Virus record (IMG/VR): IMGVR_UViG_3300014804_000067
Reading direction: 5' to 3' (one strand)
Source: a virus
Lineage: Duplodnaviria > Heunggongvirae > Uroviricota > Caudoviricetes
Length of the DNA stretch: 5,430 nucleotides
The notes beneath the pieces are model-generated. The model was not told where the DNA came from and ran no database searches. It saw nothing but the letters and a program-made list of their open reading frames with translations. Below, piece by piece: positions 1-4,908 of the stretch. Numbering within the stretch: the stretch's first letter is position 1; each line of letters starts with the position of its first letter. Position numbers and translations under genes: made by a program.

Positions 1-10
1 GGTGAGTGAT

Positions 11-139
11 ATGGATTTCGACACAATCATGGAAAAGGCTTACGAAGAATACTTCGAAGGTCTTGCCGAAGGCGAAGAAGCTCTCAGCTTCAACGAATTT
101 AAACAGGCGCTTTCCAGTTCGGCAAAATCTAACGGCTGA
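11..139 (+). CDS. Hypothetical small acidic protein (42 aa from ATG 11; may instead continue from upstream of the window)
   Basis: Open frame from position 2 to TGA 137..139; ATG at 11 preceded by GGTGA (1..5). Translation MDFDTIMEKAYEEYFEGLAEGEEALSFNEFKQALSSSAKSNG. Below the size cutoff of the ORF track. Not recognised. Confidence 0.3.
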   Translation: MDFDTIMEKAYEEYFEGLAEGEEALSFNEFKQALSSSAKSNG

Positions 140-168
140 TAAGCGAAACAGCACCGCGAGGAATCAGT

Positions 169-387
169 ATGCAGAAACGAGAACCCGTCATCATCGCGCC
201 AGACTATACCGATGATGAACTTTATGAGTGGATGCACCAGAAAATTAATGCAGCGTAGGATCTGAAATGGGCCAATGAAGCCAGGGCTAAGCAGGCTGAA
301 AATCTGTCCGCTCTGGAGCAGGATATCACTAATCTGGAAAAAGCAGCGGCATTAAGCATTGCCAGAATGATTACATACCCGCGTTAA
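169..387 (+). pseudogene. Small prophage ORF (72 codons) interrupted by an in-frame amber codon at 256..258; the 5' part alone would give a 29-aa product
   Basis: SD GAGGA at 158..162, 6 nt before ATG 169. Translation MQKREPVIIAPDYTDDELYEWMHQKINAA, then TAG, then the same frame stays open for 43 more protein-like codons (DLKWANEARAKQAENLSALEQDITNLEKAAALSIARMITYPR) to TAA 385..387. No alternative ORF covers 259..409. Confidence 0.4.
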
Positions 388-409
388 TAGCTAACCAACG
401 AGGCTAATA

Positions 410-811
410 ATGGAATTTAAAGATTTACCAGTACCATTCCAGGAAATGGCATCTAATGTGGTTCGCTCTCAACTGGCGACTCTTGACCTGAGTACTGTAG
501 AAAAGGAAACCATCGATACTATATCCGGTAACGTGCGTCGTGCCTTTATAGGTCTGTATGAAGAGAAGCGCCTATTCGGCGGACAGAATTCGACTGAAAA
601 CAAGAATCAAGCAAATGATGAGAAGCTGAAACACATTATCGCCTTACTTTTGGAAGACGCAAAACGTCTACAGCAACTGGAACCAAATGCAGGCACAGAG
701 GCCCGCATTTGGATTGCCATGAAATCACTCAAATGTGAAAGCAGTGATTATTTCAAAACAACAATTAAAACTACTCAACTTTCGGGAGAGCTACTGAAGA
801 AATTGCCATAA
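410..811 (+). CDS. Hypothetical protein, 133 aa
   Basis: ORF-track ORF; GAGG at 400..403, 6 nt before ATG 410; follows the previous ORF after a 22-nt spacer. Not recognised. Its last ~25 codons run into the AT-rich island and overlap the 3' end of the minus-strand ORF. Confidence 0.6.
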   Translation: MEFKDLPVPFQEMASNVVRSQLATLDLSTVEKETIDTISGNVRRAFIGLYEEKRLFGGQNSTENKNQANDEKLKHIIALLLEDAKRLQQLEPNAGTEARIWIAMKSLKCESSDYFKTTIKTTQLSGELLKKLP

Positions 812-965
812 GAGCACGGTCTTTCTCTTGTTCTGCAAGATGAGCATTAATACCTGGTATGGTTTTTTCAAATTTATCTATCTGTTGAATAACAACTTCG
901 CGGTATACGTTTGTATTTGTACCACCAAGCGCAGCCGTTAATGCAGAAAGCATATTTAGTATCAT
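771..965 (-). CDS. Hypothetical small protein, 64 aa (MILNMLSALTAALGGTNTNVYREVVIQQIDKFEKTIPGINAHLAEQEKDRALMAISSVALPKVE), stop-start coupled to the 27-codon ORF; alternatively the 3' part of a single frameshifted gene
   Basis: Minus-strand sequence reads cac-TGA-t-ATG: the upstream ORF stop (969..967) is followed after one nucleotide by ATG (965..963). No SD of its own. Same frame as ORF-track ORF 771..1055. Lies in the ~30% G+C island. Confidence 0.4.
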   Translation of the reverse strand: MILNMLSALTAALGGTNTNVYREVVIQQIDKFEKTIPGINAHLAEQEKDRALMAISSVALPKVE

Positions 966-966
966 A

Positions 967-1050
967 TCAGTGCGATATGAAAAGAATCCTGATAGCTTCA
1001 TCTTGTTTTTCAATAATAGATTGCAGGGCCTCAATTTGCTTTTTATCCAT
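967..1050 (-). CDS. Short upstream ORF, 27 aa (MDKKQIEALQSIIEKQDEAIRILFISH), with the strongest ribosome-binding site in the window
   Basis: On the minus strand AGGAGG (plus 1056..1061), spacer GTGAA, ATG (1050..1048); stops at TGA (969..967). The ORF track instead lists 771..1055 starting at a GTG that directly abuts the SD, which is an implausible spacing. Confidence 0.35.
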   Translation of the reverse strand: MDKKQIEALQSIIEKQDEAIRILFISH

Positions 1051-1055
1051 TTCAC

Positions 1056-1624
1056 CCTCCTGAGGGTTGGTAATTAAGGAGTTCTCCACGGGTCAGGTGG
1101 AGTGCGTGCGCCGGACACGGGTGAGCATCCGGCACTGACAGTTTACTGAAAAGGATATATCCCTGAAAAGTCAGGGCATAACACGAAAGCGCCCGGCGAA
1201 GTTAGTCTCTCTGTATAGGTCGTCATTAAATTTTCGTCGACCGCGCGCTTCCGGTTGTGGCACTCCGCGAAATGGCGCGGCGGTAAGTATGGCGGGGTTA
1301 TTCCTTCCCCGTTGAGGACACCGGGTTGTCAGGTTGACCATACGCTTAAGTGACAACCCCGCTGCAACGCCCTCTGTTATCAATTTTCTGGTGACGTTTG
1401 GCGGTATCAGTTTTACTCCGTGACTGCTCTGCCACCCTTTTTAAAGTGAATTTTGTGATGCGGTGAATGCGGCTATGCGCACGCGGAACAGTTAAAACCG
1501 TAAAGTGGTCTTTTACGGGGCGTAACGGGCATCCTTCTGTATTCCGGCGTTAATTGTTAACTGGTTAACGTCACCTGGAGGCACCAGGCACTGCATAACA
1601 AAATTCATTGTTGAGGACGCGATA
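1056..1624. other. ORF-free, GC-rich, hairpin-dense intergenic region; candidate structured RNA or regulatory region
   Basis: No credible ORF in six frames (only an Arg-rich TTG-start minus ORF). G+C about 60-67% in 60-nt samples against about 30% in the adjacent island. Perfect inverted repeats at 1110..1133 (6-bp stem), 1161..1176 (6-bp stem, 4-nt loop), 1323..1359 (9-bp stem, 19-nt loop), 1498..1518 (7-bp stem) and 1574..1588 (5-bp stem). Confidence 0.4.
1549..1568. promoter_or_regulatory. Three GTTAA(C) repeats at 7-8-nt spacing upstream of the 1625 gene; possible operator or protein-binding site
   Basis: cGTTAAttGTTAACtgGTTAACg: GTTAA at 1549..1553, 1556..1560 and 1564..1568; the last two are palindromic GTTAAC hexamers. 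No convincing sigma70 -35/-10 pair could be aligned to it. Confidence 0.25.
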
Positions 1625-2093: not shown

Positions 2094-4584
2094 ATGAGTA
2101 AAGTCTTTATTTGCGCCGCCATTCCGGACGAACAGGCAATAAAGGAAGAAGGTGCAGTCGCTGTAGCCACTGCCATTGAAGCCGGTGATGAACGTCGCGC
2201 CCGCGCAAAATTTCACTGGCAATTCCTGGAACATTATCCGGCTGCTCAGGACTGCGCTTATAAATTTCTTGTCTGCGAGGATAAACCCGGTATACCCCGC
2301 CCTGCCCTAGATTCCTGGGATGCTGAATATATGCAGGAAAACCGCTGGGATGAGGCGTCTGCTTCCTTTGTCCCGGTTGAGACTGAATCAGATCCGATGA
2401 ACGTCACTTTTGACAAGCTGGCCCCTGAAGTACAGAACNNNNNNNNNNGTACAGAACGCTGTCATGGTTAAGTTCGACACATGTGAAAACATCACCGTTG
2501 ATATGGTGATTAGCGCGCAGGAACTGTTGCAGGAAGACATGGCAACATTCGACGGACATATCGTTGAAGCGTTGATGAAAATGCCAGAAGTTAACGCCAT
2601 GTATCCGGAGCTTAAGCTGCATGCCATCGGGTGGGTTAAGCATAAATGTAAGCCTGGTGCCAAATGGCCCGAAATTCAGGCAGAGATGCGCATCTGGAAA
2701 AAACGTCGCGAAGGTGAACGCAAGGAAGCCGGAAAATACACGTCTGTTGTTGATCTCGCCCGCGCCAGAGCCAATCAACAGCACACTGAAAATTCAACAG
2801 GAAAAATCAGCCCGGTCATTGCTGCCATTCATCGCGAATACAAGCAGACATGGAAAACACTGGATGACGAACTGGCCTACGCTCTCTGGCCTGGTGATGT
2901 GGATGCCGGAAACATTGACGGCAGCATCCATCGCTGGGCAAAAAATGAAGTTATCGACAACGACCGCGAAGACTGGAAGCGTATCTCGGCATCAATGCGC
3001 AAACAGCCTGAAGCACTTGGCTATGACCGTCAGACTATTTTTGGCCTTGTCCGTGAACGTCCGATCGACATTCACAAAGATCCCGTGGCGCTGAACAAAT
3101 ACATCACTGAATACCTGACTACAAAGGGCGTGTTTGAAGATGAAGGAACAAATCAGAGCACAACTAATACTCTCCCGTCGCCAGTACCAGAAGCTGATGC
3201 AGTGGAAACGGCAATGCCGGACAACGAAAAAACCGAATGCAAAGTGGAAGTCGAACCATCTGTAGAGCGTGAGGGGCCGTTCTACTTCCTCTTCACCGAC
3301 AAGGATGGCGAAAAATACGGTCGCGCAAACAAACTTTCTGGTCTGGATAAGGCGCTGGCTGCCGGGGCAACTGAAATCACGAAAGAAGAATATTTTGCCC
3401 GCAAAAACGGCACATACACAGGTTCACAACAAAATACTGATGCATCTGACACGACCGCACAACCAGACCTGGTAAAAGTTACCGCTGACGAAGTAAACAA
3501 AATTATGCAGGCAGCCAGTATCAGCCAGCCTGACGCCGATAAGTTGCTTGCTGCCTCTCGCGGAGAATTTGTTGCAGGGATTAGCGACCCGAATGATCCG
3601 AAATGGGTAAAGGGGATTGAAACCCGCGATTCTGTAGACCAGAACCAGCAAGAATCGGAACAGAACGACCAGAAAGCGGAACAAAACAGCCCAAATGCGT
3701 TACAAAACGAGCCAGAAACGAAACAACCTGAACCAGTAGTGCAACAGGAACCGGAAAAGATCTGCACCGCCTGCGGTCAGACCGGCGGCGGCAACTGCCC
3801 TGATTGTGGCGCGGTGATGGGCGACGCAACATACCAGGAAACATTCGATGAAGAGTATCAGGTTGAAGTTCAGGAAGATGATCCGGAGGAAATGGAAGGC
3901 GCTGAACATCCACACAAGGAGAACACTGGCGGCAATCAGCATCACAATAGCGATAATGAAACTGGCGAGACGGCAGATCACCCAATTAAGGTGAACGGTC
4001 ATCACGAAATCACATCCACCAGCAGGACGTGTGACCATCTAATGATCGACCTTGAAACCATGGGAAAAAATCCTGATGCCCCGATCATCTCAATAGGTGC
4101 AATATTTTTCGATCCGCAAACCGGAGATATGGGACCGGAATTTAGTAAGACTATCGATCTGGAAACTGCTGGCGGGGTCATTGATCGGGACACCATTAAA
4201 TGGTGGCTTAAGCAATCACGCGAAGCGCAATCTGCCATTATGACCGATGAAATCCCGTTAGATGATGCACTGTTACAATTGCGGGAATTTATCGACGAAA
4301 ACTCCGGTGAATTTTTTGTTCAGGTTTGGGGAAATGGAGCCAACTTCGACAACACGATTTTGCGCCGTTCATACGAACGGCAGGGGATCCCCTGCCCGTG
4401 GCGTTACTACAACGATCGCGATGTACGCACAATCGTTGAGCTGGGGAAAGCCATAGACTTCGATGCCAGAACGGCTATTCCATTCGAAGGTGAGCGCCAT
4501 AATGCACTTGATGACGCCCGTTACCAGGCAAAATACGTTTCAGTTATCTGGCAAAAACTGATCCCGAGTCAGGCTGATTCTTAA
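2094..4584 (+). CDS. Large prophage exonuclease (~820 aa once the gap is resolved): N-terminal region recalled as exodeoxyribonuclease VIII/RecE-like, acidic Q/E/N/P-rich linker, C-x2-C-x7-C-x2-C zinc ribbon, C-terminal DEDDh 3'-5' exonuclease domain
   Basis: GAGG at 2080..2083, 10 nt before ATG 2094. The 2094 frame (ORF 2094..2471) and the 2410 frame (ORF 2410..4584) both encode VQN either side of the N run, and removing the 10 N plus one copy of the 9-mer joins them as ...DKLAPEVQNAVMVKFDTCENITV.... Cys codons at 3763, 3772, 3796, 3805. Exo motifs: DLETMG (D 4048, E 4054), WGNGANFDNT (D 4348), HNALDD (H 4498, D 4513). The TTG 'start' at 2410 is an artefact. Confidence 0.85.
2439..2448. other. 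Scaffold gap (10 N) flanked by a direct 9-bp duplication GTACAGAAC (2430..2438 and 2449..2457); probable unmerged contig overlap
   Basis: Read directly: gaaGTACAGAACnnnnnnnnnnGTACAGAACgct. It causes an apparent +1 frame change inside the exonuclease gene. Confidence 0.9.
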
Positions 4585-4656: not shown

Positions 4657-4908
4657 ATGAGCGAAGTAATCATGATTGTCTCTCCCGGCAAATGGGTATC
4701 CGAAGAGCAGTTAATTGCGCTGAAAGGAATAAAAAAAGGTACGTTAAAAAAGGCCCGGGAAAAATCGTTTATGGAAGGAAGGGAATATAAGCATGTCGCT
4801 CATGACGGTATGCCATGGGATAACAGTCCATGCTTTTACAACCTGGAAGAAATTGATCGCTGGATTGAGCGCCAGGCATCAGCGAGACCAAGACGTCATC
4901 TTACTTGA
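4657..4908 (+). CDS. xis: Excisionase-like protein (Xis family), 83 aa
   Basis: Sits between the recombination gene and the integrase. Translation contains KWVSEEQL...GREYKHV...YNLEEIDRWIE, a GREY motif followed by a hydrophobic residue as in lambda Xis (DGREYLF). SD is weak (purine-rich AAGAG/AAAG); an alternative start is ATG 4672. Confidence 0.7.
   Translation: MSEVIMIVSPGKWVSEEQLIALKGIKKGTLKKAREKSFMEGREYKHVAHDGMPWDNSPCFYNLEEIDRWIERQASARPRRHLT

What the first reader, a model, noticed from the sequence alone, without database searches (positions are those of the whole stretch)
169..387. In-frame amber (TAG) codon splitting an otherwise continuous 72-codon small ORF
The SD-initiated ORF at 169 reads 29 codons, hits TAG at 256..258, then the same frame continues for 43 protein-like codons to TAA at 385..387. 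No other frame can account for 259..409 in this tightly packed operon. This could be a recent nonsense mutation (a single C-to-T transition from CAG), a sequencing error, or a gene expressed at full length only in an amber-suppressing host.
Basis: seen in the sequence. Interest (0 to 1): 0.45.

Follow-up and report, generated by a model that had tools for sequence, protein, structure and literature searches.

The report
Amber nonsense mutation in prophage ydfC
The in-frame TAG is a single C-to-T nonsense mutation (Gln30 to stop) in ydfC, a small prophage gene of unknown function in E. coli, so this is an ordinary, rare knockout allele and not a new coding mechanism.

Summary
An ORF with a Shine-Dalgarno site starts at 169, meets TAG at 256-258, and the same frame runs on for 42 sense codons to TAA at 385-387. 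The gene is ydfC, the third gene of the dicBF operon (ydfA-ydfB-ydfC-dicF-dicB-ydfD) of Qin-like lambdoid prophages of E. coli. E. coli K-12 and every other homologue examined have a sense codon at position 30, almost always CAG (Gln). Six fetched loci are identical to window 1-407 except for C at 256.

A 41-mer centred on the TAG finds nothing in 5,426 complete E. coli genomes or in IMG/VR. The same 41-mer with CAG finds 2,631 copies. The TAG allele does recur in two metagenome contigs. One is essentially the window's own contig. The other is a different prophage mosaic, so a one-off sequencing error is unlikely.

Homologues down to about 43% identity keep a 68-72-codon frame. The predicted fold is one long helix (residues 15-69), and the stop removes about 73% of it.

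There is no suppressor tRNA in the window, no other in-frame TAG, and a neighbouring ORF ends in TAG.

Verdict: a recent, rare, probably neutral inactivating mutation in a dispensable prophage gene. Low interest.

The parts
11..139 (+). ydfB (42 aa), the gene upstream of ydfC in the dicBF operon. It is intact.
   Evidence: Annotated as ydfB in the matching E. coli records. Reading frame seen.
158..162 (+). Shine-Dalgarno GAGGA, 6 nt upstream of the ydfC start codon.
   Evidence: Read directly from the sequence.
169..255 (+). ydfC codons 1-29. This is the only part that is still translated and it is the most conserved part of the family.
   Evidence: Residues 1-29 are nearly invariant among homologues.
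256..258 (+). Premature amber codon TAG, which replaces CAG (Gln30). The change is C to T at 256.
   Evidence: Alignment with K-12 and strain 2013C-4991. Six loci differ from window 1-407 only at position 256. The TAG 41-mer has 0 hits and the CAG 41-mer has 2,631 places in complete E. coli genomes.
259..384 (+). ydfC codons 31-72. The sequence is intact but lies downstream of the stop. It encodes most of the predicted long helix.
   Evidence: The translation is identical to the commonest YdfC protein allele. The helix spans residues 15-69 with pLDDT of about 95. phrog_1744 covers residues 1-68.
385..387 (+). The normal ydfC stop codon TAA.
410..811 (+). Next gene in the operon, a 133-aa ORF (phrog_1363, unknown function) with its own GAGG ribosome-binding site at 400-403. 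It would be the first gene exposed to any polar effect.
1386..1437 (+). DicF small RNA. It fixes the operon identity and is given here as context.
   Evidence: Rfam RF00039, 70.1 bits against a gathering score of 48, E = 1.8e-14.

Best explanation
The window is the early left-arm operon of a Qin-like lambdoid prophage of E. coli. Its gene order is ydfB, ydfC, a 133-aa ORF, a convergent 94-aa ORF, DicF, dicB, a DUF1482 gene (ydfD), exonuclease, excisionase and integrase. The ORF at 169-387 is ydfC, normally a 72-aa protein. A single C-to-T transition at 256 turned codon 30 from CAG (Gln) into TAG. In an ordinary E. coli host, release factor 1 would end translation there (inferred). The product would be a 29-residue N-terminal peptide that lacks about 40 of the 55 residues of the predicted long helix, so the protein is most likely inactivated (inferred). 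The mutation looks recent, because the 42 downstream codons carry no further damage and still encode the commonest YdfC sequence (shown). It is probably neutral (inferred). The literature describes the operon's promoter as repressed by DicA and DicC. YdfC has no known function. Other prophages lack ydfB and ydfC altogether or carry frameshifted or deleted ydfC alleles. Strong polarity on downstream genes is not expected (inferred). Only 151 nt become ribosome-free before the next gene's own ribosome-binding site, and that stretch is not C-rich.
For: Gene identity: megablast hits in 3,368 of 5,426 complete E. coli genomes, annotated ydfB/ydfC. The K-12 Qin annotation and two same-architecture genomes agree. 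DicF lies at 1386-1437. The published operon description is in PMC5069750.

Point mutation: the alignment shows TAG against CAG. Of 73 fetched full-length copies, 71 have CAG and 2 have TAG. Six loci are identical to window 1-407 except at position 256.

Rarity: the TAG 41-mer gives 0 hits and the CAG 41-mer gives 2,631 places in 2,236 genomes. The TAG 41-mer gives 0 hits in IMG/VR.

The base is real: the same T is present in metagenome contigs L005 and L006. L006 is a different mosaic.

The full-length protein is the norm: 113 homologues are mostly 72 aa. Position 30 is Q, N, S or R and never a stop, and the frame is kept at 68-72 codons down to about 43% identity. dN/dS is 0.19-0.29 for codons 1-29 and 0.38-0.69 for codons 31-72. 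phrog_1744 covers residues 1-68.

Structure: a single helix spans residues 15-69, with mean pLDDT 87.

Dispensability: frameshifted and deleted alleles exist (P0073, P0075, P0079, P0103, P0105). Prophages L007-L009 have ydfA followed directly by the 133-aa ORF, with no ydfB or ydfC.

No rescue route seen: there is no in-frame start after the TAG other than Met67. There is no tRNA gene. The TAG is the only internal stop in the window's checked genes (the integrase start was not checked in the correct frame), and the 94-aa ORF ends in TAG. The C/G ratio of 259-409 is 0.89.
Against: There are no reads, so base 256 cannot be verified directly. The window is a draft scaffold with an N gap. Loss of function is inferred, not shown. 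The retained 29 residues are the most conserved part of the family and could keep some activity. The allele sits on two different prophage backgrounds although it is absent from all complete genomes. A brand-new private mutation would not be expected to show that pattern, and it remains unexplained. The host genome is unknown, so a suppressor cannot be excluded.
Confidence: 0.85

Rival explanations
1. The T at 256 is a sequencing or assembly error, and the real sequence is CAG with an intact ydfC.
For: The window is a draft metagenome scaffold. It has a 10-N gap flanked by a 9-nt artefactual duplication, and 20 substitutions separate it from its sister contig L005. The allele is absent from all 5,426 complete genomes.
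Against: The same T is present in L005 (OJPD01003113.1), which is a separate assembly version. It is also present in L006 (OKSB01010657.1), a different WGS set and a different prophage mosaic. None of the 20 differences between the window and L005 lies in ydfC. The site is not in a homopolymer.
Confidence: 0.07
2. The gene is still expressed at full length, either through an amber-suppressor tRNA in the host or through low-level natural read-through of UAG by tRNA-Gln. Read-through by tRNA-Gln would restore the wild-type Gln. My recollection, not checked here, is that Gln insertion at UAG has been reported in suppressor-free E. coli. Under this reading the TAG acts as a dose reducer and not as a knockout.
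For: The downstream 42 codons are undamaged. The allele is found on two prophage backgrounds, so it has persisted or spread. A CAG-to-TAG change is the one case where a Gln-inserting suppressor gives back the exact wild-type protein (established knowledge).
Against: There is no tRNA gene in the window. Only one in-frame TAG occurs in the window's checked genes, and a neighbouring ORF uses TAG as its stop. The stop is not conserved in any homologue. From my own knowledge, suppressor alleles are rare in natural E. coli and UAG followed by G is a fairly efficient terminator. Undamaged downstream codons are equally expected for a recent mutation.
Confidence: 0.05
3. TAG is reassigned to an amino acid, as in the stop-codon-recoded gut phages. 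Alternatively, the 29-aa ORF is the genuine gene product and the rest is untranslated.
For: The source is a metagenome, and recoded phages are found in gut metagenomes (established knowledge). The first 29 residues are the most conserved part of YdfC.
Against: This is an E. coli lambdoid prophage 97-99% identical to prophages in standard-code E. coli. There is a single in-frame TAG in 5.4 kb, and TAG is used as a stop by the 94-aa ORF. No homologue ends at residue 29, and all 21 aligned family members continue to 65-94 residues. The family profile covers residues 1-68.
Confidence: 0.01

Closest known systems
ydfC of the E. coli K-12 Qin cryptic prophage (dicBF operon: ydfA-ydfB-ydfC-dicF-dicB-ydfD)
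   Same: The window is 97-98% identical to K-12 in DNA over ydfB-ydfC. It has the same start, the same frame and the same 72-codon length, and the stop is at the same position (TAA here, TAG in K-12). ydfB lies upstream and DicF and dicB lie downstream.
   Different: Codon 30 is TAG, not CAG. His23 replaces Arg23. A 657-bp two-ORF module (408-1064) lies between ydfC and the DicF leader and is absent from K-12. Unlike Qin, the prophage arm here has an uninterrupted exonuclease, xis and int.
ydfC of same-architecture prophages, for example E. coli VR50 (NZ_CP011134.1) and 2013C-4991 (NZ_CP027355.1)
   Same: The gene order ydfA-ydfB-ydfC-ORF-DicF-dicB-DUF1482-exonuclease-xis-int is the same in both, and VR50 also carries the convergent minus-strand ORF. 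VR50 is 97.2% identical over 2.4 kb. 2013C-4991 is identical over window 1-407 except at position 256.
   Different: Those copies encode intact 72-aa YdfC.
Other decayed ydfC alleles in E. coli (frameshifts P0073, P0075, P0079, P0105; 31-residue in-frame deletion P0103)
   Same: They are independent inactivating lesions in the same small prophage gene, which shows that it is repeatedly lost.
   Different: Those are indels. This allele is a clean nonsense substitution.
Classical amber mutants (CAG to TAG) that are suppressible by supE/glnV
   Same: It is the same mutational class. A Gln-inserting suppressor would restore the wild-type sequence (established knowledge).
   Different: Here it is a natural allele in a metagenome. 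No suppressor is in evidence and no selection for conditional expression is known.

Membership tests
YdfC family (NCBI 'protein YdfC'; PHROG phrog_1744) | Sequence similarity over the full length of the family profile | tested here: met
   The conceptual translation with Gln at position 30 matches phrog_1744 at E = 1e-39 over residues 1-68 of a 68-position profile. It is 93-97% identical to the top-ranked proteins that NCBI names YdfC. Neither Pfam nor NCBIfam has an HMM for this family.
YdfC family (NCBI 'protein YdfC'; PHROG phrog_1744) | Uninterrupted reading frame of about 68-72 codons | tested here: not met
   TAG at codon 30. The locus is therefore a ydfC pseudogene or truncated allele, not a functional member.
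YdfC family (NCBI 'protein YdfC'; PHROG phrog_1744) | Position in the dicBF operon, downstream of ydfA/ydfB and upstream of DicF and dicB | tested here: met
   ydfB lies at 11-139, DicF at 1386-1437 and dicB at 1625-1813.
Stop-codon-recoded (TAG to amino acid) phage genes | Many in-frame TAGs across genes, and TAG not used as a terminator | tested here: not met
   There is one internal TAG in the window's checked genes. The 94-aa ORF (771-1055, minus strand) terminates in TAG.
Stop-codon-recoded (TAG to amino acid) phage genes | Suppressor tRNA encoded by the element | tested here: not met
   ARAGORN finds no tRNA in the 5.4-kb window. The rest of the prophage and the host are not available.
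Programmed stop-codon read-through genes | The stop codon is conserved at the same position in homologues | tested here: not met
   71 of 73 fetched copies have CAG. Divergent homologues have Q, N, S or R at this position. There are 0 TAG hits in complete genomes against 2,631 CAG hits.
Host-suppressed amber allele (supE-type) | The host carries an amber-suppressor tRNA allele | not testable with these tools
   Only metagenome contigs of 4-5 kb carry the allele. The host genome is not linked to them.

The most novel reading that the evidence does not exclude
The TAG-bearing ydfB-ydfC block is not a dead allele but a maintained variant. It has moved by recombination onto at least two prophage backgrounds. 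Either the nearly invariant 29-residue N-terminal peptide is functional on its own, or a trickle of full-length YdfC is made by Gln read-through of UAG.
Probability: 0.04. Interest if true: 0.3.

Novelty: already known. Interest (0 to 1): 0.07.

Why it matters
It matters little beyond annotation. The locus should be labelled as ydfC interrupted by a premature amber codon (a pseudogene or truncated allele), not as a 29-aa gene or a recoding event. It adds one more example of small accessory genes in the dicBF operon of E. coli prophages decaying by nonsense, frameshift and deletion. That pattern is consistent with YdfC being dispensable to the lysogen. The only mildly interesting point is that the same rare allele sits on two prophage mosaics, which illustrates module exchange among lambdoid prophages.

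Tried and rejected
1. Genuine 29-aa protein. Rejected, because no homologue ends there and the family profile is full length.

2. Another gene on another frame or strand over 259-409. Only 26-aa and 45-aa ORFs exist, and the 45-aa product is not on record as a called gene.

3. Recoding or a suppressor encoded nearby. There is no tRNA, there is a single in-frame TAG, and TAG is used as a stop next door.

4. Mutational hotspot. There is no Dcm site (CCWGG) at 256, and the nearest is at 281. By inspection, C256 is not the methylated cytosine of the GCGC at 253-256.

5. Re-initiation after the stop. There is no in-frame ATG, GTG or TTG before Met67.

6. Strong Rho polarity. The 151-nt ribosome-free stretch has a C/G ratio of 0.89 and no C-rich window. 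Polarity is judged unlikely but was not tested.

7. Function of YdfC. Pfam and NCBIfam give nothing significant. PHROG lists the family as unknown function. PDB sequence hits are only non-significant matches to coiled coils, with E of 0.2-0.85. The literature says the function is unknown. No fold search was run, because a single long helix gives uninformative matches.

8. Tracing the samples behind OJPD01 and OKSB01. No paper mentions them.

It was rerun with P0001 as the first row.

Full report
**1. Observation**

The window reads ATG at 169-171, six bases after GAGGA at 158-162. Then come 29 sense codons, TAG at 256-258, and a further 42 sense codons in the same frame to TAA at 385-387. The correct number is 42, or 43 if the TAA is included. 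Its total of 72 codon positions is right. The other frames over 259-409 offer only a 26-aa ORF on the + strand and a 45-aa ORF on the - strand. The 45-aa product is not on record as a called gene in the large protein index.

**2. What the gene is**

Window 100-450 matches 3,368 of 5,426 complete E. coli genomes at 90-99% identity. The features under the match are annotated ydfB and ydfC. In K-12 the matching locus is the Qin prophage, with the order dicA - ydfA - ydfB - ydfC - (dicF) - dicB - ydfD - exonuclease - int.

Rfam places DicF at window 1386-1437 (70.1 bits, gathering score 48). The window continues with dicB (1625-1813), a DUF1482 gene or ydfD (1810-2001), a 3'-5' exonuclease, an excisionase (4657-4908) and the start of an integrase. 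The same architecture occurs in 189 complete genomes. It includes the extra 133-aa ORF and the convergent 94-aa ORF between ydfC and DicF. One example is E. coli VR50 at 97.2% identity, where ydfC is an intact 72-aa gene.

**3. The TAG is a C-to-T substitution of CAG**

- The three-way alignment with K-12 and strain 2013C-4991 shows CAG in both where the window has TAG.
- Of 73 full-length copies extracted from all fetched loci, 71 have CAG. The two with TAG are the metagenome contigs L005 and L006.
- Six loci (L002, L015, L020, L028, L041, L048) are identical to window 1-407 at every base except C at 256.
- I used a 41-mer with the variant base at its centre, so that every 28-base megablast seed must include that base. 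With T it finds nothing in the 5,426 complete genomes. With C it finds 2,631 places in 2,236 genomes.
- The TAG 41-mer is also absent from IMG/VR.

**4. Is the base real?**

A TAG-specific 28-mer finds two metagenome contigs.

- **L005 (OJPD01003113.1, 5,411 nt).** It has the same ends as the window. It lacks the window's 19-nt N-run plus duplication and differs at 20 other positions, none of them in ydfC. It is a sister assembly of the same or a very similar population.
- **L006 (OKSB01010657.1, 4,155 nt).** This is a different mosaic. Over window 1-407 it differs only at position 402. It lacks the 657-bp module at 408-1064. It is only 94.8% identical over the next 2.6 kb, and the differences begin immediately after the junction. 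Its other genes are intact.

The same T in separately assembled contigs makes a random error unlikely. I could not find out whether the two WGS sets come from related samples. Why so rare an allele sits on two backgrounds is left open. It could be one mutation moved by recombination, samples from the same cohort, or recurrence.

**5. The full-length frame is the functional unit**

- The protein search returns 113 relatives, all from E. coli or E. albertii and mostly 72 aa long.
- In an alignment reaching down to about 43% identity, every member continues past position 29. Position 30 is Q, N, S or R. The frame is kept at 68-72 codons in the great majority. A set of hydrophobic positions in the C-terminal part (L32, L46, I53, L56, A60, L62) is nearly invariant.
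- Against four divergent homologues, dN/dS is 0.19-0.29 for codons 1-29 where it could be computed. It is 0.38-0.69 for codons 31-72, at dS of 0.5-0.84. Purifying selection on the downstream part is real but moderate.
- phrog_1744 aligns to residues 1-68 of its 68-position profile.
- AlphaFold2 on a 23-sequence alignment predicts a short N-terminal extended segment and one continuous helix spanning residues 15-69, with block pLDDT of 94-97 and a mean of 87.
- PDB sequence hits are only non-significant matches to coiled coils.

The stop therefore removes about 40 of the 55 helical residues.

**6. Consequences (inferred)**

In a standard E. coli host, translation would end at codon 30 and give a 29-residue peptide. 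There is no in-frame ATG, GTG or TTG before Met67, so a C-terminal fragment is not expected. The ribosome-free stretch is only 151 nt long and is not C-rich (C/G ratio 0.89). The next ORF has its own GAGG site at 400-403. I therefore expect little Rho-dependent polarity on the 133-aa ORF, DicF or dicB, but this was not tested.

The downstream codons still encode the commonest YdfC protein allele, so the mutation is recent.

The gene appears dispensable:

- Frameshifted alleles exist (P0073, P0075, P0079, P0105).
- A 31-residue in-frame deletion allele (P0103) exists.
- In loci L007-L009 the 133-aa ORF follows ydfA directly, with no ydfB or ydfC.

**7. Rivals**

- **Sequencing or assembly error.** This remains possible because the window is a draft scaffold with an N gap, but it is weakened by L005 and L006. 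I give it about 0.07.
- **Suppression or read-through.** I found no positive evidence for it. There is no tRNA gene in the window. The TAG is the only internal stop in the window's checked genes, and the neighbouring 94-aa ORF ends in TAG. The stop is not conserved in homologues. It cannot be excluded without the host genome, and a Gln-inserting suppressor or near-cognate read-through would restore the wild-type residue. I give it about 0.05.
- **TAG recoding or a genuine 29-aa protein.** These are effectively refuted.

**8. Comparison with the known, and verdict**

This is the known gene ydfC, carrying a classical CAG-to-TAG amber mutation. It meets the sequence and synteny criteria of the YdfC family but fails the intact-frame criterion, so it should be annotated as a ydfC pseudogene or truncated allele. 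Nothing here is mechanistically new. Interest is low (0.07). The most novel reading left open is a maintained allele in which the conserved 29-residue peptide or leaky read-through is functional. I give that about 4%.

Noticed in passing
window 2430-2457: A run of 10 N (2439-2448) is flanked by a 9-nt duplicate GTACAGAAC. It throws the 3'-5' exonuclease ORF (2094..4584) out of frame. The sister contig L005 and genome L002 read straight through without these 19 nt, so this is a scaffolding artefact. Fifteen of the 20 substitutions between the window and L005 cluster at 2309-2484, which suggests a strain-variant bubble at the join.
   Followed up: yes
window 1386-1437 (+) and 1449-1602 (+): There is a clear DicF small RNA (RF00039, 70.1 bits). 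It is followed by a sub-threshold match to STnc100 (34.9 bits against a gathering score of 47) in the leader upstream of dicB.
   Followed up: partly
window 408-1064: A 657-bp module holds a 133-aa ORF (410-811 +, phrog_1363) and a convergent 94-aa ORF (771-1055 -, phrog_18692) whose 3' ends overlap by 41 nt. Both are of unknown function. The module is absent from K-12 Qin and from L006. In L007-L009 the 133-aa ORF follows ydfA directly and replaces ydfB and ydfC.
   Followed up: partly
window 169-387; loci L090-L097: YdfC residues 1-29 are nearly invariant, while the C-terminal helix diverges. L096 has dS = 0 over codons 1-29 but 0.65 over codons 31-72, which indicates a mosaic recombination joint inside ydfC near codon 35. 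Several contig-end partial proteins (P0090, P0095, P0097) start at residues 29-31, probably because assemblies break at this repeat boundary.
   Followed up: partly
L006 (OKSB01010657.1) 156-562 compared with window 1-407: The rare TAG allele sits on two different prophage mosaics, with and without the 657-bp module and with 94.8% identity downstream. It is nevertheless absent from all complete E. coli genomes. Whether this reflects recombination, related samples or recurrence is unresolved.
   Followed up: partly
L004 (JAIIUG010000151.1): A 2.5-kb contig that carries E. coli ydfB-ydfC-DicF (98.8% identical to window 1-407, with CAG at codon 30) is deposited as part of a 'Collinsella sp.' MAG. 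This is almost certainly binning contamination.
   Followed up: no
protein P0103 (homologue set): This is a 41-aa in-frame deletion allele of YdfC. Residues 30-60 are lost, and GCAGCG occurs at both deletion endpoints (by inspection of the window's own ydfC sequence). It is seen on 13 contigs and is another recurrent decay form of the gene.
   Followed up: no
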